A DNA stretch of 62,749 bases, filler included, from a bacterium (lineage in GTDB: Bacteria; JALSQH01): the NCBI GenBank assembly GCA_026985515.1. It is 7 parts of 7 records of this genome, joined end to end, with 100 filler letters (N's around TTAATTAATTAA, not from the genome) between each part and the next. Parts side by side here need not be neighbours in the genome. Positions count along the whole stretch, not along the records: positions 10,956 to 30,561 come from JALSQH010000017.1; 6 more parts are not named here. One strand, 5' to 3'. Numbering within the stretch: position 1 is the first letter of the stretch; each line of letters starts with the position of its first letter. The translations under genes were made by a program, and so were the position numbers. Of this stretch, positions 23,269-62,115 are shown in pieces. The notes beneath the pieces are model-generated. The model made no database searches and had not been told where the DNA came from. It worked only from the letters and a program-made list of their open reading frames with translations.

Positions 23269-25056
23269 TTACCTGTAAATGTAATTCCCGAGGTTAAATT
23301 TCTCATAAAAATAACCAATCAGTGCATTAAAATCTCTTGCTGTTGCAGGAGAAAATTCATCAGGATAATCTGTGGTCCCATAATAATCTTCAAGGTTAAG
23401 AATATCATTTATGGCTTTTTTATCATTTGCAAAATCAAGATAAAGAAGACCATTAAAAGATGCATTATTATTTCTGAAAGAGATGTAGGGAAGAGGGGTT
23501 GCAAGGGTATCTTTAAGTATCCTTTTTATTCCATATCCTCTGTAAAGCTCTTCGTGGTACACGCCGGCAGTGAAATGGTCAACATCTTCAGGTGGAATAT
23601 CTTTCGGGAGAATAATCCCGTAAGGTCCATTTAATGGATATTGAGATAAAACTCCCGGTTCATATGGAACAGTTGTATCCCATTCAAGGAAAAAGAGATT
23701 TTCATCGGAGTTGTATGGATCTTTTCTCCATGGAGGGAGAAGAACTCTGAAAGAAACAGGATTTGCAAAGAAGGTTCTGAGATCAAGATTAATTACATCA
23801 GGTATAAATCCAGTCAATAATCCATATATGGTACCGGGATAGAGAGTTCCAATTGAAAGGAATTTTTTCACCATGTCGGGTAATTCAACTATTTTTGTTT
23901 TTGCTACAAAATCGAGAAGCGACGAAACAATATCAGCCAGAACAGGGAAAATATCTCCATTTAAACTTAATCTCTCAGGTGTATGGGTAGTAAGGTGAGA
24001 ATAAATTCTCTTCAGGGCTGAAATTCCATTTTCATCTAAAAAGAGATTTACGGAAGCTGTTGTATTGTTTACATACAACCTGTTGTAAAGAACAACATCA
24101 TACTTTATGCTGGTAAACATATTTTTGAAATTTTGATCTCCTGTAATTTTTGAAAATTCCTCACCTCTTTTCTGATCAAGAACAATCACCACCTGATCAT
24201 CAGAGAGAGGCTCAGCAAGCCCTGTCTCGATAAGTTTCATGAGATCTTTATATGCTTCCGTCAAACCTGTCAAAGGATATGTGTAAAATTCCTTTCCATC
24301 AGGAGTTCCATCTTGATCAAGATCCCATTCACTTAAATGAAGAAATTTCAGCTCCGGGTCATTGAGTTGCTGGACAATAATATTCATCAGAATCAGAGGA
24401 GTCGGTACAGGTTCTCCATTTATTCTTTTGTCCTTCAGATGAACATACTGAGTATAAATACCATAAATGTCCAGATCAAGCTCCTGAGAAAGTATAAATT
24501 TAACGGTAGAGAGAAAAATTTTGCTTAAAATACTCAAAAAGTAGATATCAGTTCTATCAATTTTTCCACCCAGTTCCATAACCTTCTGCATATTCCAGAG
24601 CACTGGAAGAGTCTTGATCCTGAGATCTCCACCTCTTTCTTTGGCGATATCCAGTAATCTGTCCATTTCCTCCCATCTTACCAAAAACCCGCTCATGATT
24701 TTCTTTGCCACTTCAAGAATATCTTCCTTTTCTGTTCTGGTACCCATAATATCAAAGCTTCCATGAGGAATCCCCTTTGATCTGTTAATCCCTGACACAG
24801 AAGCAAGATAATCAGCAAAATCAAGGGTCAGAGAAAGAAAGTGGGAAATTGCACTTCCTGTCAGTGCTTCACCATTTTCCGGATTTTCTTTTAATGCCTT
24901 GTCGTAATATTGGGCTGCAAGATCATAACTACCTTTCTCGAGATAACCCTTTGCTATTTGAGTATAACTTTTCTTCTCCTCGCTTTTTCCTTTGCACCCG
25001 GATATTAATAGAGAAAACAAAAGAATTACCGCAAGAGAAACTTTCAATTCCTTCAT
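23269..25056 (-). CDS. Hypothetical lipoprotein with N-terminal TPR
   Basis: Lipobox ISGC, one TPR-like repeat, DLDQDGTPDG Ca-loop-like motif. Confidence 0.7.
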   Translation of the reverse strand: MKELKVSLAVILLFSLLISGCKGKSEEKKSYTQIAKGYLEKGSYDLAAQYYDKALKENPENGEALTGSAISHFLSLTLDFADYLASVSGINRSKGIPHGSFDIMGTRTEKEDILEVAKKIMSGFLVRWEEMDRLLDIAKERGGDLRIKTLPVLWNMQKVMELGGKIDRTDIYFLSILSKIFLSTVKFILSQELDLDIYGIYTQYVHLKDKRINGEPVPTPLILMNIIVQQLNDPELKFLHLSEWDLDQDGTPDGKEFYTYPLTGLTEAYKDLMKLIETGLAEPLSDDQVVIVLDQKRGEEFSKITGDQNFKNMFTSIKYDVVLYNRLYVNNTTASVNLFLDENGISALKRIYSHLTTHTPERLSLNGDIFPVLADIVSSLLDFVAKTKIVELPDMVKKFLSIGTLYPGTIYGLLTGFIPDVINLDLRTFFANPVSFRVLLPPWRKDPYNSDENLFFLEWDTTVPYEPGVLSQYPLNGPYGIILPKDIPPEDVDHFTAGVYHEELYRGYGIKRILKDTLATPLPYISFRNNNASFNGLLYLDFANDKKAINDILNLEDYYGTTDYPDEFSPATARDFNALIGYFYEKFNLGNYIYR

Positions 25057-25081
25057 TACTACTTACCTCTTTTTTCTTCTA

Positions 25082-25110
25082 ATTCTAATGAATGTACTTC
25101 CTAAAATCAA
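25082..25110 (-). promoter_or_regulatory. sigma70 promoter of the lipoprotein-TetR unit
   Basis: TTGATT-17-TAGAAT on the minus strand. Confidence 0.55.
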
Positions 25111-25141
25111 GTTTACCAGCACATATCATTGTAAATTGCTC

Positions 25142-25169
25142 TTGACATCAGAGCTTCCTTTTATATAAT
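25142..25169 (+). promoter_or_regulatory. Consensus sigma70 promoter of the tRNA
   Basis: TTGACA-16-TATAAT. Confidence 0.85.
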
Positions 25170-25176
25170 GATTAGT

Positions 25177-25253
25177 AGCGGGGTAGGGCAGCCTGGTAGC
25201 CCGTCGGGCTCATAACCCGGAGGTCGGAGGTTCAAATCCTCCCCCCGCGACCA
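25177..25253 (+). tRNA. Initiator tRNA-Met (CAT)
   Basis: 77-nt cloverleaf, anticodon CAT, three consecutive G-C pairs in the anticodon stem, R11-Y24, unpaired 1:72, encoded CCA. Confidence 0.96.
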
Positions 25254-25258
25254 TTTTT

Positions 25259-25831
25259 TTATTTGATTAAGTCTTTTTCCTGATCTATAAATTTCCTCAA
25301 CATTCTGGAAAGTGTTACAAAGAGAGGAATTCCTGAGTCTCCCACTCTGTCTAAAAATTCATCAATCCAGGAAAGAATATGTTCTCTGAAGAAATATGTG
25401 AGATCCCGGGAATCCGGATAATTTTCAAGAAGGAAGGCGATAAATTCAAGTTCAATTGGGAGTGAGTCCGGGAGACTGCTTTCCTCGGCTGGTTCGAGCT
25501 GGTATTTTGCATACATCTCGATAACATCTTCAGTGGTGGGACCCATTACCAGTCCATTATTCCTGTAGACAGACTCATAGGGAGGTGCAATGGTGGTGGG
25601 AAATCCAGAAATAAAGAGATTTACAAAATCGGCTTCCACGTCCTGAAAATTTAGAGAATCTAACTGATCCATCCATCTTTCCATTTCATCCTTCAGTTCT
25701 TCCAGATCAATTAGTTCCTGAGCAAGTATTCTCATTTCTTCATATCTTTCCTTATCTGGATAAGAAAAAGCCCGGGCAAACCAGAGGTAAGCCCGGGCAC
25801 GAGATTCTCTGGATGGTTCTGTCTTTTTCAT
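25259..25831 (-). CDS. TorD/DmsD-family molybdoenzyme chaperone
   Basis: APPYESVY and LPDS..IELEF motifs; last gene of the Mo operon. Confidence 0.88.
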   Translation of the reverse strand: MKKTEPSRESRARAYLWFARAFSYPDKERYEEMRILAQELIDLEELKDEMERWMDQLDSLNFQDVEADFVNLFISGFPTTIAPPYESVYRNNGLVMGPTTEDVIEMYAKYQLEPAEESSLPDSLPIELEFIAFLLENYPDSRDLTYFFREHILSWIDEFLDRVGDSGIPLFVTLSRMLRKFIDQEKDLIK

Positions 25832-27357: not shown

Positions 27358-30072
27358 TTAAAGTTTTTTCAACCTGACCGTGAATTCCTGTGAAAGAAAC
27401 CCGGCGGCTATTGGCTCAACTCCATAACTCACTATTTCACTCAGTGGTGCTCCAACACCATATGCAACTTTGAGCTGTCTGGCCTCGGAACCGAAACTTG
27501 AAGGCATGAAAACAGTATCAGGTCTTACTTTCTCAGTTACATAAGCCTGAATATGGATTTTCTGGCCAGTTTTTGTATTAACTACCTCCAGCAGATCACC
27601 AGATTTGATACCCAGCTTCCGGGCAACCTTACTGTTGATCCACAGACCATATTTTTCAAGAGGATCAATAAGATTATTCACAAATGAGAGGAGCTTGTTA
27701 TCTAAAGTAGCAGCTGAGGCATGTGATTCTGTTGGAGTTTTACCATAGATAAAGTAAAATTCATTTTCACCAATCTTTTTACCCGTTACCTCGGCAGGTA
27801 TATATTTGATTGTGGGATCAATGAATTCATTGTAGCCATGCTGCTGAACCATCATTGCCATCATGTAACTGTAAAACTCAACTCTTCCAGATGGTGTGGG
27901 AGCAGGGAGTTTATAAAAGAGAGCAGATTTTTTGAGGAATTCCTCCTTCTTCTCTATGAGAACCACTCCATCTTTCTTCATTCTGGCCATTATGCCAGGG
28001 TGCTTCTTTTCCAGCAGCATTTCTGTCGCTTTCCTCAAAGCATCGTTATAAGATTTACCTTTTCTGACCTCTTCTGAAACAACCTTTTTGTAGTGTTCAG
28101 CGGGAAGTCCAAACAATTTCTCCATCCATTCATAAAATGGATCAAGGAGATTCAGTTTTTCAAGCCACATCATTGCAACATCGGGATAACTCTTAACATC
28201 ATAGAGGGGTTCCACAACCTTAAATCTGGTTGTCTTCATAAGATCAGGATTTGGACCATTGCCATAGACAAAGGGCTCATCCCTTTCCAGATAGGTGGTG
28301 GAGGGGAGAATTACATCAGCATAAGCAGCTGCCTCTGTGGGTAGAACATCATGAACAATAATCAGTTTTACATTCTTATGAGTGAAGAATTTTTTCCATC
28401 TTTCAGCAGTGTAGAAATTCCTGATGGGATTGTTTCCATTTATAAAAAAGGCCTTTATCTGGTATGGTTTTCCATCAAGCCATTTCAGTTTTCCTTCCAC
28501 AGCTTCATCAAGACCCCAGTCGGCAAAGGCAGGCATCAGAACTGCAGGCTTACCTTCTTTTTCATTCACAATTGAGAAAGCAAAGGAGAAATGAGGATGA
28601 CCATGTTTCCAGCTCCTGGGGTTTCCATAGAGATTGAGGAGTGCCATTGCAAAGAGCATTCCAGGCATTTCACCAGGTCTTACTTCCTCGCCCTTCTGCA
28701 TCGCTCTGAGAAAGTTGGCAACTTTCTCATGATGTTCTCCAGAGAAGACCCATCCACCCTCCTTATCAATATTGCCTGTTAATGCCTGGATCATAGTCTG
28801 TACTCTTCTGATAAGAACGATGTTTCTGTACCGTGAACCATGCCATCCTGGATCCATAACTGGATGTTTCGCTGTTCCAAATCCCTTTGCCACTGCTCTG
28901 ATTGTTGAAGCAGAAACACCGGTAATTTTCTCAGCCCACTCCGGAGTGAACTGTGAAAGCTGCTTTCTGAATAACTGGAAAACTGTAATAACCTTTTTCC
29001 CCCTGAATCTAACATTCGCTGGAATTTCAAGGGCAGGGGAGATTCCTTTTCCGGTGATATCCTTCTCATTTGTATTGGTGTATCCAGGAACTGCCACAAT
29101 TTTCTTGCTGTTTTCATCATATACATAGAATTTCGCGGGCATATTCCTCTTTTTGTCTATTTCCATTACCGGTTGACCATTCTCAGCAAATACAAGATGA
29201 GGCATGTTTGTGTGTTTTTTGAGGAAATCTGCATTATAGTAACCTTTATTAAGCATCTCGCTCATCATCGCAAGGAAAAATTCAAGATCTGTTCCGGGTT
29301 TTATGGGAATCCACTTTGTTGCCCTGGAGGCAGTCTCGGAGAGTCTTGGATCAAGAATAACGACCTCTGCTCCCCTCCTTACAGCCTTTGCAAATCTCAC
29401 CGCCCTGCTTGTTGAAATTCCACCCATTGAAGCATTACCAAGGGCTGCAAGAATGTAATCAGCCTTATCATAATCTGCAAGGACCTCGTCATGAATGTTG
29501 AAATCACCAATAACGAGGTCATTTCCGAAATGGCTTGAACCAACGCAGTGCTGCATGGGTGAAGCCACTATATTGGGCATCCCATAGGCAAGTGTAAAGG
29601 CCAGGGAAACCGGCATGTAGAAGACGCAGTTAAACCACCCGGAAGGCATTGCTATTTCCCATGGCTGTATATTTTCATCCTTAAGCTTTTTGATAATGTA
29701 ATCAATAACCTCGTCCCAGGTGGCTTTTCTGAATTTCCATTCTCCTCTTTTACTTCCTTCCACTCTGATTAGAGGATATTTCAAACGATGAGGATTGTAG
29801 AGAAGCTGTAGCCCTGTCTGGCCTCTTGCACAGATTCTTCCCTGGTTGAGGGAACTCTTGCTGTTGCCTTCAATTTTGACAGCCTTACCTTTCGGGTTCA
29901 CAGCCACCATTATACTGCATGTGGTGGAACAGAAATTACATACTGACGGAACATACCTGATCTGTTTTGTTGTTACCTTTGCTTTTGCCCTGGAAGGCCT
30001 GAGGAGACTTGCTCCTACAGCAACCCCGGCAGCGCCCTTCAAAAACGCTCTTCTGCTAATTTTACCACTCAT
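27358..30072 (-). CDS. Tat-exported Mo/W-bisPGD oxidoreductase catalytic subunit (Psr/Phs/Sre-like)
   Basis: Tat signal SRRAFLK, FS0 CNFCSTTC...C, IKPGTD, YADVILP, PTPSGRVEF; candidate Cys ligand in PMQHC. Confidence 0.85.
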   Translation of the reverse strand: MSGKISRRAFLKGAAGVAVGASLLRPSRAKAKVTTKQIRYVPSVCNFCSTTCSIMVAVNPKGKAVKIEGNSKSSLNQGRICARGQTGLQLLYNPHRLKYPLIRVEGSKRGEWKFRKATWDEVIDYIIKKLKDENIQPWEIAMPSGWFNCVFYMPVSLAFTLAYGMPNIVASPMQHCVGSSHFGNDLVIGDFNIHDEVLADYDKADYILAALGNASMGGISTSRAVRFAKAVRRGAEVVILDPRLSETASRATKWIPIKPGTDLEFFLAMMSEMLNKGYYNADFLKKHTNMPHLVFAENGQPVMEIDKKRNMPAKFYVYDENSKKIVAVPGYTNTNEKDITGKGISPALEIPANVRFRGKKVITVFQLFRKQLSQFTPEWAEKITGVSASTIRAVAKGFGTAKHPVMDPGWHGSRYRNIVLIRRVQTMIQALTGNIDKEGGWVFSGEHHEKVANFLRAMQKGEEVRPGEMPGMLFAMALLNLYGNPRSWKHGHPHFSFAFSIVNEKEGKPAVLMPAFADWGLDEAVEGKLKWLDGKPYQIKAFFINGNNPIRNFYTAERWKKFFTHKNVKLIIVHDVLPTEAAAYADVILPSTTYLERDEPFVYGNGPNPDLMKTTRFKVVEPLYDVKSYPDVAMMWLEKLNLLDPFYEWMEKLFGLPAEHYKKVVSEEVRKGKSYNDALRKATEMLLEKKHPGIMARMKKDGVVLIEKKEEFLKKSALFYKLPAPTPSGRVEFYSYMMAMMVQQHGYNEFIDPTIKYIPAEVTGKKIGENEFYFIYGKTPTESHASAATLDNKLLSFVNNLIDPLEKYGLWINSKVARKLGIKSGDLLEVVNTKTGQKIHIQAYVTEKVRPDTVFMPSSFGSEARQLKVAYGVGAPLSEIVSYGVEPIAAGFLSQEFTVRLKKL

Positions 30073-30158: not shown

Positions 30159-30186
30159 ATTATATCTCTTAACAGCTCTGTGTCAA
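30159..30186 (-). promoter_or_regulatory. Consensus sigma70 promoter of the Mo operon
   Basis: TTGACA-16-TATAAT on the minus strand. Confidence 0.75.
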
Positions 30187-30202: not shown

Positions 30203-30231
30203 TTGACAGAGGGATAAAGTAACATTATAAT
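30203..30231 (+). promoter_or_regulatory. Consensus sigma70 promoter of the 30254 lipoprotein
   Basis: TTGACA-17-TATAAT followed by SD AGGAGG. Confidence 0.8.
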
Positions 30232-30661: not shown

Positions 30662-32491
30662 GAGTTTAAGAACTATCTCTTAAAGTACGGAAGCATAGAG
30701 GAAAAATTGAAAAAGTTTCTTCAGAGTCACAGGGATCTCCATAATTTTTACGAGGAAATTCTGGTTAAGTCTGAAACAGCTCTTACAGGACTGCCTGTAC
30801 CTGTGGATGTTCTTCTGCGGTTGAAGAAGAGCAGAAGAGTGAGAAAAAGTGAAGAGCTTTATGAGAAGATAAGCAGAATGCAGAAGGATCTTGAGGATAT
30901 TTCCAAGAGGCTGGAAGAAGTTAAATTAATTGCTGAGAAATCTGGAAGGCAGGCCATAATCCCAGGAACCATTTTCAGCCATAATAAAATAAAGCAGATC
31001 CTTTATACAATGAGAATGATTGAACTCAAGCTTCTTCAGTACAAAAAGGCAGAGATAATAAACGCGGTATCTCTTGAAGGTGCCAAGGTTCTGGGAGAGG
31101 TTTATGAATTGAGAAGACTTACTTCCTATCTTATGGATGTACTCGAAGAGTTGAGGAAAAAAGTAGCAGAAAAAAGGAACGAGCTTCTCTCCATACTTGA
31201 TTTTCTGACTGGAGTTTTGCCTCCAGATGTCATTTCGAAGTACGCCGCTGGAATAACCACGGGTATCACCCCTGAACAGAAGAGATACCTTGCGGCAAAG
31301 GCGGAACTGGAGAGGGAATTGAAACAGCTGGAAAATATGAACCCTCTGATAGATTTCTATGAAAATAGAGTTGCTTCAATGAGGGAAATGACCTTTACCA
31401 TTGAAAAAAGGATAATGGATCATTTTGCAAGAAGGATAAGGTATCAGCGAAAAAAGTATTTGAAAAAGATAGATGCGCTGCTTAAAAAAATTGAGTATCT
31501 CCGTAATCAGATTAATGTAATAAGACAGGAAATGGTAAGAAAGAAACTCCAGGCAATAGCCAGAGTGAGAAAGGAAATAACGGAAAAGGAAAAAATACTT
31601 GCACAGTATATAAAAGCACTTGGAAGGTTAAAAAGGGAAGCTGATCAGATGAGGGGTAAGGTTGTGTATGCGGAGCTGGAAAATTTCAGAAAGATGATGG
31701 ATTTTTACACAATGCAGGCTCATATGGGATTTATTGATATAAGCTGGAAGATAAAGGAGGAGAATGAAAAGAAGGTGAATAACCTGTATGAAGCTGAGGC
31801 AGATGAAATAAGCAGGGCTGAGAATTACTACAGCAATCTTCTTGCAGAGGCAAGAAAAAAACCTGAGGTTAAATTAAAGCTCGGAGAGGGAGTTAATTTA
31901 AAACCTGTCAGTGTTGATGAACTTGATAAACTGGAGGAGAATCTTGACTTAAAGGATAGTCTTTACGGATTTGACTTCAGGGATGTTGGTAAAAAGGTTG
32001 CATCTGTGGAACAGAAAGTAGATAGTTACAGCAGGGTTATAACGACCCTCAAAGAATCTCCCTTTAATCCACTTAAGCCGGTAAAACTGAAAGCGGGTAA
32101 AAAGGAGAATGTTTATTTAAGATTACGCATAAGAGATAGAATGGGATGGCAGTACAGGTTGCAAAAAGTAGAGGCATTTATTGACGGATTTCTCCTCTTC
32201 CAGAATGATAGGGTGCAGGACCTACCTAATGCGAAGAATTTCATAGGCTTTGCAGGTATGATTTTACCCGGGGAACACCATCTGGAACTCAAATTTTACT
32301 ATAAAACGAGGGGTTTTCTCTTCTGGAAGCCTGCCAGGAAGAATCTCATAGTCAGAGAATCGTACGATTTTGATTGTGCGCCACATGACAATGTTTTCAT
32401 CACATTTTCAATTGAAAAAGAGAAGGGTGCTCCGGAGGTAATTGAAGCATTTAAAAGAAAAAAGGCTTCTGTAAAGGAAGGAAAAAAATGA
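30662..32491 (+). CDS. Long coiled-coil protein with C-terminal beta domain, first visible gene of the Glt-like cluster (5' partial)
   Basis: Frame open from contig edge; ATGA overlap with the gltD-like gene. Confidence 0.7.
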   Translation, partial: EFKNYLLKYGSIEEKLKKFLQSHRDLHNFYEEILVKSETALTGLPVPVDVLLRLKKSRRVRKSEELYEKISRMQKDLEDISKRLEEVKLIAEKSGRQAIIPGTIFSHNKIKQILYTMRMIELKLLQYKKAEIINAVSLEGAKVLGEVYELRRLTSYLMDVLEELRKKVAEKRNELLSILDFLTGVLPPDVISKYAAGITTGITPEQKRYLAAKAELERELKQLENMNPLIDFYENRVASMREMTFTIEKRIMDHFARRIRYQRKKYLKKIDALLKKIEYLRNQINVIRQEMVRKKLQAIARVRKEITEKEKILAQYIKALGRLKREADQMRGKVVYAELENFRKMMDFYTMQAHMGFIDISWKIKEENEKKVNNLYEAEADEISRAENYYSNLLAEARKKPEVKLKLGEGVNLKPVSVDELDKLEENLDLKDSLYGFDFRDVGKKVASVEQKVDSYSRVITTLKESPFNPLKPVKLKAGKKENVYLRLRIRDRMGWQYRLQKVEAFIDGFLLFQNDRVQDLPNAKNFIGFAGMILPGEHHLELKFYYKTRGFLFWKPARKNLIVRESYDFDCAPHDNVFITFSIEKEKGAPEVIEAFKRKKASVKEGKK

Positions 32492-39125: not shown

Positions 39126-40469
39126 GTGCAGAGAACCGAGAGAGTATTAAAGGTTGCAGTTGTTCAGAATGACATTATAACCGGTGAATTTCTGCTCCGT
39201 GAAAGTGGCAAATTCACAGTAGGAACTGGTTTTAATGTTGATGTACATGTTAATGACGAGTCTCTGCCCCGAAAGACCACTTTTTTCTTTAAAAAGGGTC
39301 CAAGGTACGGGTTTGTAATTTTACCTGGAGCAAGGGGAAAAGTAGTTTCCGTTGAGGGACGGGTTTATACTCTGGACCAGCTTGTCAATTCAGAATTCTC
39401 AAGAATTGAGAGAGGTGCCCCTGTAGTTTATCTGGACAGGATCGAGAGGGGTAAAATCATTATTGGTGACACCACATTCCTCTTCAAGTATATTGAATTG
39501 CCACCGCCTCCCAAACTTGATTTGCCTGCTCCCAAAAAGGACTGGAGATATCTTTCAATCCTGGCGGTCTCGCTTCTTATCCATGGAGCTTTGATGTACT
39601 ATCTGGGAACGGCAAATGTAAAAACTACGGCACCTGAATCTCTGCAGGCGATTCCGGCGAGATTTGCTAAGTTGATTGTTGAAAAGCCTCCAGAGAAGCC
39701 AAAGCCTCAGAAGGTAAAAAATCTCCCCATAAAGGCTCAAAAGGAGAAGGTTGGTGAAAATAAAGGAAAGGTGCAGAAAACCAGACCTAAGGAAGAGGCT
39801 GGTGGAGGAACAAGCACAAGAAGGGCAAAGGCTGCCAGACCATCAAAAGCTGCACTCAGAAAGAAGGTCAGATCCGTGGGTGTCCTCGCTATTCTCACAT
39901 CTAAAAGCGCAGGTGGAAGTGTGGCAGATGTTATAAGTGCAGGAGCCGGTGTCACCGGTGATCTGGATAAGGTTTTATCTGAGGTTGGCGGTGTGGGTGT
40001 TGCGAAGAGTACAGCTGAAGTTCTTGCGGCTGCAAAGAGAAGAAGAGGTGCAGCTGCCGGGGGTGGCGCAGATATAGGCGAACTTGCCGTGGGACCGGGT
40101 GAGAGCATCGGGCTCGGGAAAAAGAAAGTGGTTAGAGTGAGAAGCAGAATATTGACCGGGGCTTTTGCAAGTCAGGGGTCACTTGATTCAAGAGTTATTG
40201 CAAGAGTTGTTAAACTGGGAATGGGTGGAATAAAGTACTGCTATGAAATGGGGTTAAAGAGAAATCCAAAACTTGCCGGAAAGGTGGTGGTGGAGTTTGT
40301 AATAGGTTCTGGAGGTAGAGTTAGAACAGCGAGAGTTACCTTTTCCTCACTTGGAGATAGGGAGGTGGAGAGTTGTATAGTGAGAAGAATATTGAGATTC
40401 AGATTCCCTCCTCCAAAAAATGGGAGTGTGAGAGTTTCCTATCCTTTTATTTTTACATCTGCAGGGTAA
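39126..40469 (+). CDS. gltG: GltG/PglI-like TonB-type energy transducer (AgmX/PglI C-terminal domain)
   Basis: Cytoplasmic beta domain, TM helix with SxxxH (SLLIH), flexible linker, C-terminal IKYCYE..LKRNPKL.GKV...F.I...ESCI......RFP.P....V.VSYPF.F. Confidence 0.78.
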   Translation: MQRTERVLKVAVVQNDIITGEFLLRESGKFTVGTGFNVDVHVNDESLPRKTTFFFKKGPRYGFVILPGARGKVVSVEGRVYTLDQLVNSEFSRIERGAPVVYLDRIERGKIIIGDTTFLFKYIELPPPPKLDLPAPKKDWRYLSILAVSLLIHGALMYYLGTANVKTTAPESLQAIPARFAKLIVEKPPEKPKPQKVKNLPIKAQKEKVGENKGKVQKTRPKEEAGGGTSTRRAKAARPSKAALRKKVRSVGVLAILTSKSAGGSVADVISAGAGVTGDLDKVLSEVGGVGVAKSTAEVLAAAKRRRGAAAGGGADIGELAVGPGESIGLGKKKVVRVRSRILTGAFASQGSLDSRVIARVVKLGMGGIKYCYEMGLKRNPKLAGKVVVEFVIGSGGRVRTARVTFSSLGDREVESCIVRRILRFRFPPPKNGSVRVSYPFIFTSAG

Positions 40470-60541: not shown

Positions 60542-60676
60542 CTTGCAAAGAAAATGGTAATCAAAAGCAAAGGGATGTTCAGATATACTCTCGATGGAGA
60601 TCTGTTTGAGGCAGAGGATGAACTCACTGCTGAAATTGGACCACAGATTAAATTTGCCGTACCTGAGAAAAAATGA
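60542..60676 (+). CDS. C-terminal fragment, probably diacylglycerol/sphingosine kinase family (not in ORF track)
   Basis: LAKKMVIKSKGMFRYTLDGDLFEAEDELTAEIGPQIKFAVPEKK*; xDG(D/E) motif; ATGA overlap with rtcB. Confidence 0.5.
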   Translation, partial: LAKKMVIKSKGMFRYTLDGDLFEAEDELTAEIGPQIKFAVPEKK

Positions 60677-62115
60677 AAAGCTTTCAGTACAGGAGAATTG
60701 ACCCATACAGGATTCTGATCCCCCGCCAGGGAAAAATGAGAACAGATGCTGTGATTTTTGTAAATGGAAATCTGTGGAATCAGATAAAAAATGATGAAAG
60801 CGTCATTCAAATAATGAATGTTGCCACACTTCCTGGAATAGTGGGTAAAGCACTCGCAATGCCGGATATTCATTCAGGGTATGGCTTCCCAATAGGTGGC
60901 GTAGCAGCATTTGATATTGATGAGGGAATAATATCTCCGGGGGGAGTTGGTTACGACATAAATTGTGGAGTTAGATTAATCTACACTTTCTTTCAAAAGG
61001 ATGAGATCAAAACAAAAATTGATAAAATCATCACCGCTATTTTTAATTCTGTTCCCTCCGGCGTTGGTTCAAGAAGCAATCTGAGAATCACAAAAAAAGA
61101 ATTCAAAAAGATTATCAAAGAGGGGGCAAGGTACGCTGTTGCAATGGGACTGGGGGAAGAAGAGGATCTCCAGTACATTGAAGAAAATGGTGAAATGAAA
61201 GGAGCTGATCAGGAAACCATATCATCACGAGCCTACGAAAGGGGAATCGAACAGCTTGGCACCCTCGGCTCAGGCAATCATTTTATCGAAATTGATTATG
61301 TGGAGAGAATCTATGATGAAAAGGTGGCAGAGGTATTTGGACTCTTCACAGAACAGATCGTTATTTTAATCCATACAGGTTCAAGGGGATTTGGCCACCA
61401 AATAGCTGATGACTATATAAAAATGATGAGAAAGAGTATCAGCAAATATGGAATAACTCTCCCTGATCAACAACTTGTGTGCGCTCCCTTCAAATCTGTT
61501 GAGGGCCAGGATTACTGGTTAGCAATGAAGGGAGCCGTGAACTTTGCATTTGCCAACAGAGAAATAATAACTCACAGAGTAAGAGAAGCTTTTTTATCGG
61601 TCCTGAGAACATCCCCCCGTGATGCAGGATTGAAACTTCTCTACGATGTTGCTCACAATATTGCAAAACTGGAAAAACTGCCTGTAAATGGTGAAGAAAA
61701 AGAAGTGATTGTCCATAGAAAGGGGGCTACCAAAGCCTATCCTCCAGGTCACCCTCTTATTCCGGAAAAGTACAGAGAGGTTGGTCAACCTGTTTTAATA
61801 CCGGGGGATATGGGCAGGTACAGTTATGTTCTTTCTGGAACCCAAACTGCCTACAACACAACATTTGGAAGCACCTGTCATGGAGCAGGAAGGGTTCTCA
61901 GCAGGCATCAGGCAAGAAAAGTGGCAGCGGGAAGAAACATCTTCGATGAAATGGAGAACAAAGATATTATTGTTCTTGCTGAATCCAGGAAGACAGTGGT
62001 TGAAGAAATCTCAGAGGCGTATAAAGATGTTTCAGAAGTTGTAAAAGTGGTGGAGGGAGCAGGAATTTCCAGGATTGTGGCAAGATTAAAACCCCTGGCT
62101 GTGATAAAAGGATAA
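60673..62115 (+). CDS. rtcB: RNA-splicing/repair ligase RtcB (long form)
   Basis: MPDIHSGYGFPIGG, GYDINCG, GSGNHF, HTGSRG, HN, HRKGAT, HGAGR. Confidence 0.96.
   Translation: MKSFQYRRIDPYRILIPRQGKMRTDAVIFVNGNLWNQIKNDESVIQIMNVATLPGIVGKALAMPDIHSGYGFPIGGVAAFDIDEGIISPGGVGYDINCGVRLIYTFFQKDEIKTKIDKIITAIFNSVPSGVGSRSNLRITKKEFKKIIKEGARYAVAMGLGEEEDLQYIEENGEMKGADQETISSRAYERGIEQLGTLGSGNHFIEIDYVERIYDEKVAEVFGLFTEQIVILIHTGSRGFGHQIADDYIKMMRKSISKYGITLPDQQLVCAPFKSVEGQDYWLAMKGAVNFAFANREIITHRVREAFLSVLRTSPRDAGLKLLYDVAHNIAKLEKLPVNGEEKEVIVHRKGATKAYPPGHPLIPEKYREVGQPVLIPGDMGRYSYVLSGTQTAYNTTFGSTCHGAGRVLSRHQARKVAAGRNIFDEMENKDIIVLAESRKTVVEEISEAYKDVSEVVKVVEGAGISRIVARLKPLAVIKG

What the first reader, a model, noticed from the sequence alone, without database searches (positions are those of the whole stretch)
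25142..25253. Initiator tRNA with A1:G72 mismatch that appears to be transcribed without a 5' leader
Seen: a perfect TTGACA-16-TATAAT promoter ends 7 nt before the first tRNA base, so the expected +1 is A25177. The tRNA begins with A opposite G72 rather than the usual bacterial C1:A72. Known: RNA polymerase prefers a purine start, formylation needs a weak or unpaired 1:72, and leaderless RNase P-independent tRNAs are described in some archaea such as Nanoarchaeum. Inference: a C1-to-A change allows a 5'-triphosphate tRNA-fMet that bypasses RNase P while keeping the formylation determinant.
Basis: partly seen in the sequence, partly recalled or inferred. Interest (0 to 1): 0.7.

Follow-up and report, generated by a model that had tools for sequence, protein, structure and literature searches.

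The report
Initiator tRNA gene built to start leaderless
A bacterial initiator tRNA gene sits so close behind a perfect promoter that transcription should begin at the tRNA's own first base, an A instead of the usual C, which would let this tRNA skip the normal trimming of its 5' end.

Summary
A 12/12 TTGACA-16-TATAAT promoter (25142-25169) ends 7 nt before a bacterial-type initiator tRNA-Met(CAT) at 25177-25253. That tRNA has A1 opposite G72.

By published E. coli start-site rules, A25177 is the favoured start. It is a purine at position 8 after the -10 box, with T before it and G after it.

The layout recurs. I found 39 distinct A1 initiator genes in metagenomes and Nitrospirota genomes with the -10 box exactly 7 nt upstream. 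In 38 of these 39 the base before A1 is a pyrimidine. Two Thermodesulfobacteriota genomes show the same layout. Base 72 is C, A or G in these groups, and never U at this spacing.

105 C1/U1 initiators of Thermodesulfobacteriota have no -10 box closer than 9 nt.

[quoted passage not shown] In one of its genomes, only the initiator has this geometry among the 33 of 44 tRNA genes examined.

No RNA data exist for this organism and no genome is held. The start site, the 5'-triphosphate and the organism's RNase P status are therefore inferred or unknown.

Verdict: a real feature and probably a leaderless initiator tRNA, a new bacterial variant of a known archaeal strategy. A one- or two-base leader is not excluded.

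The parts
25142..25147 (+). -35 hexamer TTGACA
   Evidence: 6/6 match; part of one of three perfect consensus promoters in the window (0.04 expected)
25148..25163 (+). 16-nt spacer
25164..25169 (+). -10 hexamer TATAAT
   Evidence: 6/6 match
25170..25176 (+). 7-nt discriminator GATTAGT. Position 6 is G25175 and position 7 is T25176.
   Evidence: Inference from the start-site rules read: T at position 7 is a poor start, and G at position 6 is a weak competitor.
25177..25177 (+). Predicted transcription start, which is also tRNA base 1 (A): position 8 after the -10 box, T at -1, G at +2.
   Evidence: Inferred. The same layout occurs in 39 distinct A1 loci elsewhere and in G124 and G090. No RNA evidence.
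25177..25253 (+). Initiator tRNA-Met(CAT), 77 nt, with A1xG72, G11:C24, three G:C pairs in the anticodon stem, A73 and an encoded CCA.
   Evidence: Closest known sequences are A1xC72 initiators at 73/77 identity.
25254..25260 (+). Run of seven T directly after CCA. Possibly where transcription stops, with the tRNA's own acceptor helix acting as the hairpin.
   Evidence: sequence. No separate hairpin in the fold and not called by the terminator scan. Inference only, low confidence. The convergent ORF 25259-25831 (-) ends 5 nt after the tRNA.
25082..25110 (-). Promoter-like site (9/12) facing the other way, upstream of the TPR-protein ORF 23269-25056 (-). Back-to-back with the tRNA promoter.
   Evidence: Consensus match only.

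Best explanation
This is a working initiator tRNA gene whose own strong sigma-70-type promoter is placed so that RNA polymerase starts at the tRNA's first base, A25177. The primary transcript then already has the mature 5' end, as a triphosphate unless a pyrophosphohydrolase trims it, and needs no RNase P cut. It needs little 3' trimming, because CCA is encoded and a T-run follows at once.

A at position 1 supplies the purine that the polymerase prefers. G at 72 keeps 1x72 unpaired, which is the feature bacterial initiators need to be formylated and kept away from elongation.

Shown: the sequence layout, its recurrence in other lineages, and its restriction to the initiator in one analogue genome. 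Inferred: the start site, the 5' chemistry, formylation of an AxG tRNA, and termination at the T-run.
For: (1) Promoter quality and place. The promoter matches the consensus 12/12 and ends 7 nt before A1. The perfect consensus occurs 3 times in the window against 0.04 expected, so this organism uses the canonical motif.

(2) Start-site rules for E. coli RNAP (passages of Yu et al. 2017 read). Positions 6/7/8/9 after the -10 box are used 8/55/29/7 %. There is a strong preference for a purine at the start, a pyrimidine before it and G after it. Here position 7 is T, and position 8 is A with T before and G after.

(3) Recurrence. Among 100 distinct purine-1 initiator loci from metagenomes, 60 had a scored promoter within 30 nt. 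In 49 of those 60 the -10 box ended 5-8 nt upstream (24 at exactly 7). Pooling these with 60 fetched Nitrospirota loci gives 39 distinct A1 loci at exactly 7 nt. They have 14 different -10 hexamers and 15 tRNA sequences. The -1 base is a pyrimidine in 38 of 39 and position 6 is a pyrimidine in 32 of 39. Two Thermodesulfobacteriota genomes (G124, G090) have TAAAAT-7-A1 with T at -1.

(4) Base 72 is C (38 of 39), A (G124, G090 and one other locus) or G (window), never U at this spacing. That makes three ways of keeping a mismatch.

(5) Contrast set. 105 distinct C1/U1 initiators of Thermodesulfobacteriota include 84 with a scored promoter. The -10 box ends 9-25 nt upstream in all 84, and none is at 8 or less.

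(6) Within the HARP clade, C1 initiators have the -10 box 8 nt upstream with a purine at position 7 in 11 of 12 rows (read by eye). The start purine therefore keeps its place and the tRNA moves by two bases.

(7) In genome G327, 33 of 44 tRNA genes were examined and 10 had scored promoters. Only the initiator sits at 7 nt. The other nine are at 8-31 nt.

(8) The gene looks selected. Against its nearest relatives (73/77 identity) it differs by a compensatory A11:U24 to G11:C24 change plus positions 43 and 72.

(9) tRNAs engineered to start at their mature 5' end are aminoacylated in E. coli (Mohanty and Kushner 2014, passages read).
Against: There is no RNA evidence at all.

A25177 is at position 8, not the modal position 7. 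G25175 at position 6 is a possible alternative start. In the 39 analogue loci position 6 is never G.

The start-site rules come from E. coli, and this organism's polymerase is untested.

A close promoter does not by itself mean leaderless. In G124 and G090 most tRNA genes have the -10 box 7-17 nt upstream. In Nitrospirota, C1/U1 initiators with the -10 box only 5-8 nt upstream are common (114 of 301 genomes matched the pattern; classes).

A1 also occurs with leaders. Four of 6 A1 Thermodesulfobacteriota genomes have them, as does a GC-rich AxA class in metagenomes.

The 39 loci are largely one clade, so the number of independent origins is about three, not 39.

AxG and G11:C24 are both very rare, and formylation of such a tRNA has not been tested.
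Confidence: 0.58

Rival explanations
1. Transcription starts one or two bases upstream (G25175 or T25176), and the very short leader is removed by the organism's RNase P (RNA-based or HARP). A1xG72 is then just one more rare mismatch variant.
For: Position 7 is the modal start (55 %) and position 6 is used 8 % of the time. G25175 is a purine. Two- to six-base leaders are the norm in related groups: the -10 box lies 9-13 nt upstream in most of 84 scored Thermodesulfobacteriota initiators, and 8 nt upstream with a purine at position 7 in C1 initiators of the HARP clade (by eye). Every analogue genome tested has an RNase P of some kind.
Against: T at position 7 is a disfavoured start. G25175 has a purine before it and sits at the least used position. 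This reading does not explain why 38 of 39 analogue loci have a pyrimidine at -1 with A1 invariant at position 8.
Confidence: 0.27
2. The gene is a decaying or spare copy. The working initiator, with a common 1x72 pair, lies elsewhere in the genome.
For: There are two very rare features in one tRNA: AxG 1 of 4438 and 11:24 G:C 3 of 4438. The genome is not held, so a second copy cannot be excluded.
Against: The promoter is perfect. The Rfam score is 63.2 bits. All other initiator marks are intact. The 11:24 change is compensatory. Genomes searched with the initiator patterns mostly gave one match each.
Confidence: 0.08
3. A1 or G72 is an assembly artefact: a chimera joined inside the conserved tRNA core, or a base error.
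For: Logan contigs of the source sample break inside the tRNA (they overlap at 25219-25231), so A1 and G72 lie on different contigs. Many other initiator tRNAs of the community pile up there. No independent run covers 25108-25175.
Against: Both contigs match with 0 differences and similar depth, 8.02 and 7.25. Tetranucleotide usage left and right of the tRNA correlates at r = 0.97. That is higher than between the two halves of either side (0.94, 0.95) and far above 23 other loci of similar G+C (best 0.85-0.89, median about 0.2).
Confidence: 0.04
4. Transcription starts at G25178 (position 9) and yields a tRNA without base 1.
For: G is a purine at an allowed position (7 % usage). A class of initiator genes with the -10 box 5 nt upstream places G2 at the modal position.
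Against: Position 9 is rarely used and has a purine before it, while A25177 is better placed on every rule.
Confidence: 0.03

Closest known systems
Leaderless tRNA genes of Nanoarchaeum equitans (Randau, Schroder and Soll 2008; known to me from recall and from its mention in the review read)
   Same: The promoter is at a fixed short distance, so the transcript begins at the mature 5' end. A purine is at the first transcribed base. No 5' trimming is needed.
   Different: There, all tRNAs are leaderless and the organism has no RNase P. Here it is one tRNA, the initiator, in a bacterium with a sigma-70-type promoter. Analogue genomes keep an RNase P, and in G327 other tRNA genes have leaders. The Nanoarchaeum 5'-triphosphate was measured. 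Here it is inferred.
Canonical bacterial tRNA-fMet (E. coli metZ/metY type, C1xA72)
   Same: CAU anticodon, three G:C pairs in the anticodon stem, an unpaired 1x72, A73, a purine11:pyrimidine24 pair and encoded CCA. Encoded CCA is the high-frequency state in initiators (title and passages of Ardell and Hou 2016).
   Different: A1xG72 instead of C1xA72, and G11:C24 instead of A11:U24 (1 and 3 of 4438). E. coli makes all 86 tRNA 5' ends with RNase P (abstract passage).
A1xC72 initiator tRNA genes of a HARP-only clade in the phylum of G004 (Nitrospirota by the record title of L004), for example G471, G522 and G327
   Same: 73/77 identity to the window's tRNA. A1, encoded CCA, a TTGACA-type promoter with the -10 box 6-7 nt upstream and a pyrimidine at -1.
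   Different: Base 72 is C rather than G, 11:24 is A:U, and the spacer is 18 nt rather than 16. GltX is only 52-56 % identical, so this is not a close relative. Whether the window's organism has HARP is unknown.
tRNAs engineered in E. coli to be transcribed from their mature 5' end (Mohanty and Kushner 2014)
   Same: The start site is set at tRNA base 1 to remove the need for RNase P, and such tRNAs are aminoacylated.
   Different: These are artificial constructs for valine tRNAs. They did not rescue an RNase P mutant, and the authors raised the retained triphosphate as a possible problem.

Membership tests
Bacterial initiator tRNA (tRNA-fMet) | Anticodon CAU in a standard cloverleaf | tested here: met
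   ARAGORN. Rfam tRNA 63.2 bits.
Bacterial initiator tRNA (tRNA-fMet) | Three consecutive G:C pairs 29-31:39-41 in the anticodon stem | tested here: met
   Read: TCGGG CTCATAA CCCGG.
Bacterial initiator tRNA (tRNA-fMet) | No Watson-Crick pair at 1:72 | tested here: met
   A1 opposite G72, unpaired in the fold. The AxG form is 1 of 4438.
Bacterial initiator tRNA (tRNA-fMet) | A11:U24 (purine 11, pyrimidine 24) | tested here: inconclusive
   G11:C24 keeps the purine:pyrimidine order but not A:U. It is 3 of 4438.
Bacterial initiator tRNA (tRNA-fMet) | Formylation by methionyl-tRNA formyltransferase | not testable with these tools
   G2:C71, C3:G70 and A73 are present. An AxG substrate is untested. 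No fmt gene was looked for, because no genome is held.
Leaderless (RNase P-independent) tRNA gene, Nanoarchaeum type | Promoter at a fixed distance that places the start at tRNA base 1 | tested here: met
   At sequence level only. The -10 box ends 7 nt upstream. The same distance is seen in 39 A1 loci and in G124 and G090.
Leaderless (RNase P-independent) tRNA gene, Nanoarchaeum type | Purine as first base of the tRNA | tested here: met
   A25177
Leaderless (RNase P-independent) tRNA gene, Nanoarchaeum type | Mature tRNA carries a 5'-triphosphate, and primary 5' ends map to base 1 | not testable with these tools
   No RNA run holds the sequence.
Leaderless (RNase P-independent) tRNA gene, Nanoarchaeum type | Genome lacks RNase P and all tRNAs are leaderless | not testable with these tools
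   No genome is held for the window. In analogue genomes this is not met: RNase P RNA in 5 of 5 or HARP in 27 of 27, and other tRNAs of G327 have leaders.
Sigma-70-type promoter | TTGACA and TATAAT hexamers 16-18 nt apart | tested here: met
   12/12 match with a 16-nt spacer. 3 in the window against 0.04 expected. Activity not tested.

The most novel reading that the evidence does not exclude
Bacterial initiator tRNAs that begin with A are a natural class of leaderless tRNAs with a 5'-triphosphate, and this class arose at least three times. In each case the promoter moved up against the gene, base 1 became the initiating purine, and base 72 was set to C, A or (here) G so that 1x72 stays unpaired.

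The initiator would then be the one bacterial tRNA that repeatedly escapes RNase P. One such lineage is a Nitrospirota clade that has swapped the RNA enzyme for HARP. In the window the gene is a minimal unit: it starts at base 1, encodes CCA, and a T-run follows directly.

Because the first base is A, output of the initiator would depend directly on the ATP level at initiation, as at rRNA promoters.
Probability: 0.45. Interest if true: 0.78.

Novelty: new variant of a known kind. Interest (0 to 1): 0.66.

Why it matters
RNase P is treated as the universal maker of tRNA 5' ends in bacteria. The initiator's unpaired 1x72 is known to make it an awkward substrate (Meinnel and Blanquet 1995, as cited in the passage of Ardell and Hou read).

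A natural bacterial initiator that starts at its own first base would be the first bacterial counterpart of the Nanoarchaeum solution that I could find. It would give a functional reason for the roughly 1 % of bacterial initiators that begin with a purine (48 of 4438). It would also mean that a 5'-triphosphate tRNA works in formylation, IF2 binding and the P site.

The idea is directly testable with one 5'-end mapping experiment. It also gives a simple sequence rule for finding further cases: A1, a pyrimidine at -1, and the -10 box 6-7 nt upstream.

I did not find such a report in six full-text searches or in the passages of two differential RNA-seq papers that hold my search terms. Supplementary tables of such papers were not available and may list tRNA start sites.

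Tried and rejected
- **Whole genome of the window:** none is held. The -10 to +1 distance of its other tRNAs, rnpA/rnpB/HARP, fmt and a second initiator copy could not be checked. The window has no other tRNA or Rfam hit.
- **RNA evidence:** no RNA holder was listed. Laying contigs confirmed the bases only in the likely source sample.
- **Plasmid collection search:** it returned only generic initiator tRNA matches, which were not useful.
- **Close relatives:** GltX finds nothing above 56 % identity.
- **Synteny:** tblastn of 12 window proteins against the 119 metagenome loci gave no shared neighbourhood.
- **HARP in the window:** tblastn gave nothing (best E 0.057). The window is only 62 kb, so this says nothing about the genome.
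- **A rule I formed and then dropped:** 'a -10 box 8 nt or less upstream occurs only with purine-1'. It held in Thermodesulfobacteriota (0 of 84; 1 of 105 with a looser pattern). It failed in Nitrospirota, where U1, C1, A1 and G1 initiators all occur with the -10 box 5 nt upstream and C1 occurs at 6-8 nt.
- **Coverage:** of its 115 matches I analysed 60 by script. The rest I read by eye only.
- **Coverage:** of its 114 places I fetched 110.
- **Separate terminator after the tRNA:** none was found.
- **ViennaRNA fold:** the minimum-energy fold gives the acceptor and T arms but not the D and anticodon arms. I rely on ARAGORN and Rfam for the cloverleaf.
- **My promoter scorer:** it is a simple consensus count with a threshold of 8.5 of 12, requiring A at position 2 and T at position 6 of the -10 box. 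It left 40 of 100 purine-1 loci and 21 of 105 control loci without a call. It once picked a poorer site (L453).

Full report
**What is there**

The window holds one tRNA gene, tRNA-Met(CAT), at 25177-25253 on the + strand. ARAGORN finds it and Rfam scores it at 63.2 bits against a gathering score of 29.

Read, it is a bacterial-type initiator:
- Acceptor strands AGCGGGG and CCCCGCG.
- Three G:C pairs in the anticodon stem.
- T-loop TTCAAAT, A73 and an encoded CCA.

Base 1 is A and base 72 is G, so 1x72 is a purine-purine mismatch. 11:24 is G:C.

Directly upstream lie TTGACA (25142-25147), a 16-nt spacer, TATAAT (25164-25169) and seven bases, GATTAGT. The perfect consensus with a 16-18 nt spacer occurs three times in the window against 0.04 expected, and none of 100 shuffles reached three. 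The promoter is therefore not a chance match, and the organism evidently uses the canonical motif.

A run of seven T follows CCA at once, and a convergent ORF ends five bases later. A weaker promoter-like site faces the other way towards a TPR-protein gene.

**Is the sequence sound?**

No genome is held for the window.

Run X1, whose label is a hydrothermal vent metagenome and which may be the source, holds all sampled words. Two runs of another study hold 52 % and 22 %.

Logan contigs of X1 match 24700-25231 and 25219-25700 without a difference, at depths 8.02 and 7.25. They break inside the tRNA, where many other initiators of the community pile up. The other runs do not cover 25108-25175. 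A1 and G72 are thus confirmed only within the source sample and on two contigs.

A chimera is unlikely. Tetranucleotide usage left and right of the tRNA correlates at r = 0.97. The halves of each side give 0.94 and 0.95. Twenty-three other loci of similar G+C give at most 0.85-0.89.

**How rare is the tRNA?**

Ardell and Hou (2016, Table 2, read) counted 4438 predicted bacterial initiators:

| 1x72 | Count |
|---|---|
| CxA | 3392 |
| CxU | 626 |
| UxU | 207 |
| CxC | 90 |
| U:A | 63 |
| AxA | 39 |
| UxG | 9 |
| GxA | 7 |
| UxC | 3 |
| AxC | 1 |
| AxG | 1 |

11:24 was G:C in 3 of 4438.

None of the initiators I collected is AxG. That covers 100 purine-1 metagenome loci (89 with base 72 resolved), 105 Thermodesulfobacteriota loci, 6 more from the same phylum and 60 Nitrospirota loci.

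**Where should transcription start?**

Passages of Yu et al. 2017 give the E. coli rules:
- Positions 6, 7, 8 and 9 after the -10 box are used 8, 55, 29 and 7 % of the time.
- There is a strong preference for a purine at the start.
- A pyrimidine just before the start and a G just after it are also preferred.

In the window, position 6 is G (preceded by A) and position 7 is T. Position 8 is A25177, preceded by T and followed by G. Position 9 is G. A25177 satisfies all three sequence preferences at the second most used position, and the modal position holds a pyrimidine. I take A25177 as the main start. G25175 is the most likely minor one. This is an inference from another organism's enzyme.

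**Relatives and analogues**

GltX from the window finds nothing above 55-56 % identity in one genome per species, so no close relative is at hand. The best GltX hits are MAGs titled Thermodesulfobacteriota, Deltaproteobacteria and Thermodesulfovibrio. Their initiators are C1xU72 or U1xU72, with the -10 box 10-26 nt upstream where I could score it.

This gave 100 distinct loci with enough flank.
- 60 had a scored promoter within 30 nt.
- In 49 of those 60 the -10 box ended 5-8 nt before base 1: 19 at 5 nt, 5 at 6, 24 at 7 and 1 at 8.
- The other 11 lay at 11-28 nt.
- 40 loci had no scored promoter. These include a GC-rich AxA class without encoded CCA and with a gap of about 16 nt.

*Contrast set.* 111 of 301 sampled genomes of the phylum of G001 matched a pattern blind to base 1. 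I fetched 110 of the 114 places. The 105 distinct usable loci all begin with C or U. 84 had a scored promoter, with the -10 box 9-25 nt upstream and none closer.

*A1 in the same phylum.* 6 of 201 genomes have A1xA72. Two of them (G124, G090) have TAAAAT, seven bases, then A1, with T at -1. The other four have the -10 box 11-14 nt upstream.

*Nitrospirota changed the picture.* G004 is a genome titled Thermodesulfovibrio, a genus of Nitrospirota. A pattern asking for TTG, a spacer, TANNNT and 5-8 bases before any initiator matched 114 of 301 genomes of its phylum. A promoter pressed against the initiator gene is therefore common there, and not only with a purine at base 1.

I fetched 60 of the 115 places. 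One search sorts them:

| -10 box to base 1 | 1x72 classes (count) |
|---|---|
| 5 nt | U:A 19, AxA 9, CxA 5, GxA 1 |
| 6 nt | AxC 3, CxA 2 |
| 7 nt | AxC 16, AxA 1 |
| unscored or misjudged | 4 |

By eye, 14 further rows are C1 at 7-8 nt. In 11 of the 12 at 8 nt, position 7 is a purine and -1 is T, which predicts a two-base leader.

My interim rule that a close promoter implies purine-1 is therefore wrong in general. What does hold is narrower and still telling. Pooled with the metagenome set there are 39 distinct A1 loci at exactly 7 nt, with 14 different -10 hexamers and 15 tRNA sequences. The -1 base is a pyrimidine in 38 of 39. Position 6 is a pyrimidine in 32 of 39 and is never G. Base 72 is C in 38 and A in 1.

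The start purine keeps its place relative to the -10 box. In the A1 lineages that purine is base 1 of the tRNA.

**The RNase P context**

- The five Thermodesulfobacteriota A1 genomes tested all have type A RNase P RNA at 290-305 bits. None has a HARP match over the cut-off.
- In Nitrospirota the A1xC72 genomes and their C1 neighbours with the -10 box at 8 nt behave differently. PF08745, the family that I recall holds HARP, is found at 187-208 bits in 27 of 27.
- RF00010 is found in only 1 of those 27 (G522). PF00825 (rnpA) is found in 0 of 5 tested.
- The genomes with the -10 box at 5-6 nt (U:A, AxA, CxA and GxA classes) have RNase P RNA in 25 of 27 and no HARP over the cut-off. One search used stricter filters because it covered more than 40 genomes.
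- Reviews say HARPs occur in some Nitrospirae and that most HARP-bearing bacteria also have rnpA and rnpB.

In genome G327, which has one 2.37-Mb contig and HARP only, I examined 33 of 44 tRNA genes. Ten had scored promoters, at 7 (the initiator), 8, 9, 9, 11, 14, 17, 19, 20 and 31 nt. Only the initiator has base 1 at position 8.

In G124 and G090, which have RNase P RNA, short distances are the norm (7-17 nt, one at 24). tRNA-Ser(TGA) shares the 7-8 nt distance.

**Placing the window's tRNA**

Its closest sequences (73 of 77) are the A1xC72 initiators of G471 and G522 and metagenome locus L209. In those the -10 box ends 6 nt upstream, so A1 sits at the modal position 7 with a pyrimidine before it.

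The four differences are A11:U24 to G11:C24 (a compensatory pair change), position 43 and position 72. The compensatory change argues that the window's gene is under selection for structure.

Whether the organism belongs near that HARP clade is open. GltX identity is 52-56 %, no better than to other phyla. The window holds no HARP-like ORF, but it is only 62 kb.

**Reading**

The most economical account is that the gene is transcribed from A25177 and needs no 5' cut. A1 serves as the initiating purine, and G72 is one of three observed ways (C, A, G) to keep 1x72 unpaired.

That tRNAs started at their mature end can be charged is known from E. coli constructs. That an organism can live on such tRNAs is known from Nanoarchaeum (and recall).

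The main rival is a one- or two-base leader removed by RNase P or HARP. The rules and the pattern make it less likely, but only 5'-end mapping can exclude it.

The claim is for this tRNA alone. Nothing suggests that the organism lacks RNase P.

**Novelty**

Purine-1 initiators are in published tables, and leaderless tRNAs are known in one archaeon. I did not find the link between the two in bacteria. I ran six full-text searches and read the passages of two differential RNA-seq papers that hold my search terms. Supplementary tables were not open to me and might list tRNA start sites.

I rate this a new variant of a known kind. It is of real interest to people who work on tRNA processing and initiation, and it is testable with one experiment.

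Noticed in passing
L416-L452 (phylum of G004) and metagenome loci such as L101, L106, L112, L127: A large class of initiator genes has the -10 hexamer only 5 nt before base 1: 53 distinct loci, with base 72 always A. That puts base 1 at position 6 and G2 at the modal start position 7. Base 1 is U, A, C or G and flips between near-identical loci (L422 A against L424 U; L432 and L434 A against L439 G). Either the polymerase starts at position 6 whatever the base, or these tRNAs start at G2 and lack base 1. These genomes have RNase P RNA (25 of 27).
   Followed up: partly
G327, G404, G540, G564, G369, G471, G501 and 19 further handles in the phylum of G004: This clade has a strong PF08745 (HARP-type) gene in 27 of 27 genomes and no RNase P RNA hit in 26 of those 27. 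There is no rnpA hit in the 5 genomes tested. Reviews say most HARP-bearing bacteria outside Aquificaceae also keep rnpA and rnpB, so a sizeable HARP-only Nitrospirota clade may deserve its own look.
   Followed up: partly
window 30159-30186 (-) and 30203-30231 (+): Two further perfect TTGACA-N16/17-TATAAT promoters lie back to back. One faces the molybdopterin oxidoreductase operon (27358-30072, with Fe-S, cytochrome b and NarJ-like genes down to 25259). The other faces the ORF at 30707.
   Followed up: no
G124 locus L380; G090 locus L404: In the two Thermodesulfobacteriota genomes with an A1 initiator at 7 nt, tRNA-Ser(TGA), which begins with G, also has TATAAT 7 and 8 nt upstream. Most other tRNA genes there have the -10 box 9-15 nt upstream, which implies leaders of only a few bases.
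   Followed up: no
window 25219-25231: Logan contigs of the source sample break inside the tRNA, and contigs of many other organisms' initiator tRNAs pile up there (depth in the tens of thousands). Conserved tRNA cores are break points for k-mer assemblies of this community.
   Followed up: yes
window 39126-40469 and 60673-62115: One ORF has an AgmX/PglI C-terminal domain and a weak match to gliding protein GltG. Another is an RtcB-family RNA ligase ORF whose best match is an intein-containing RtcB model, below its cut-off. Neither is related to the finding.
   Followed up: no
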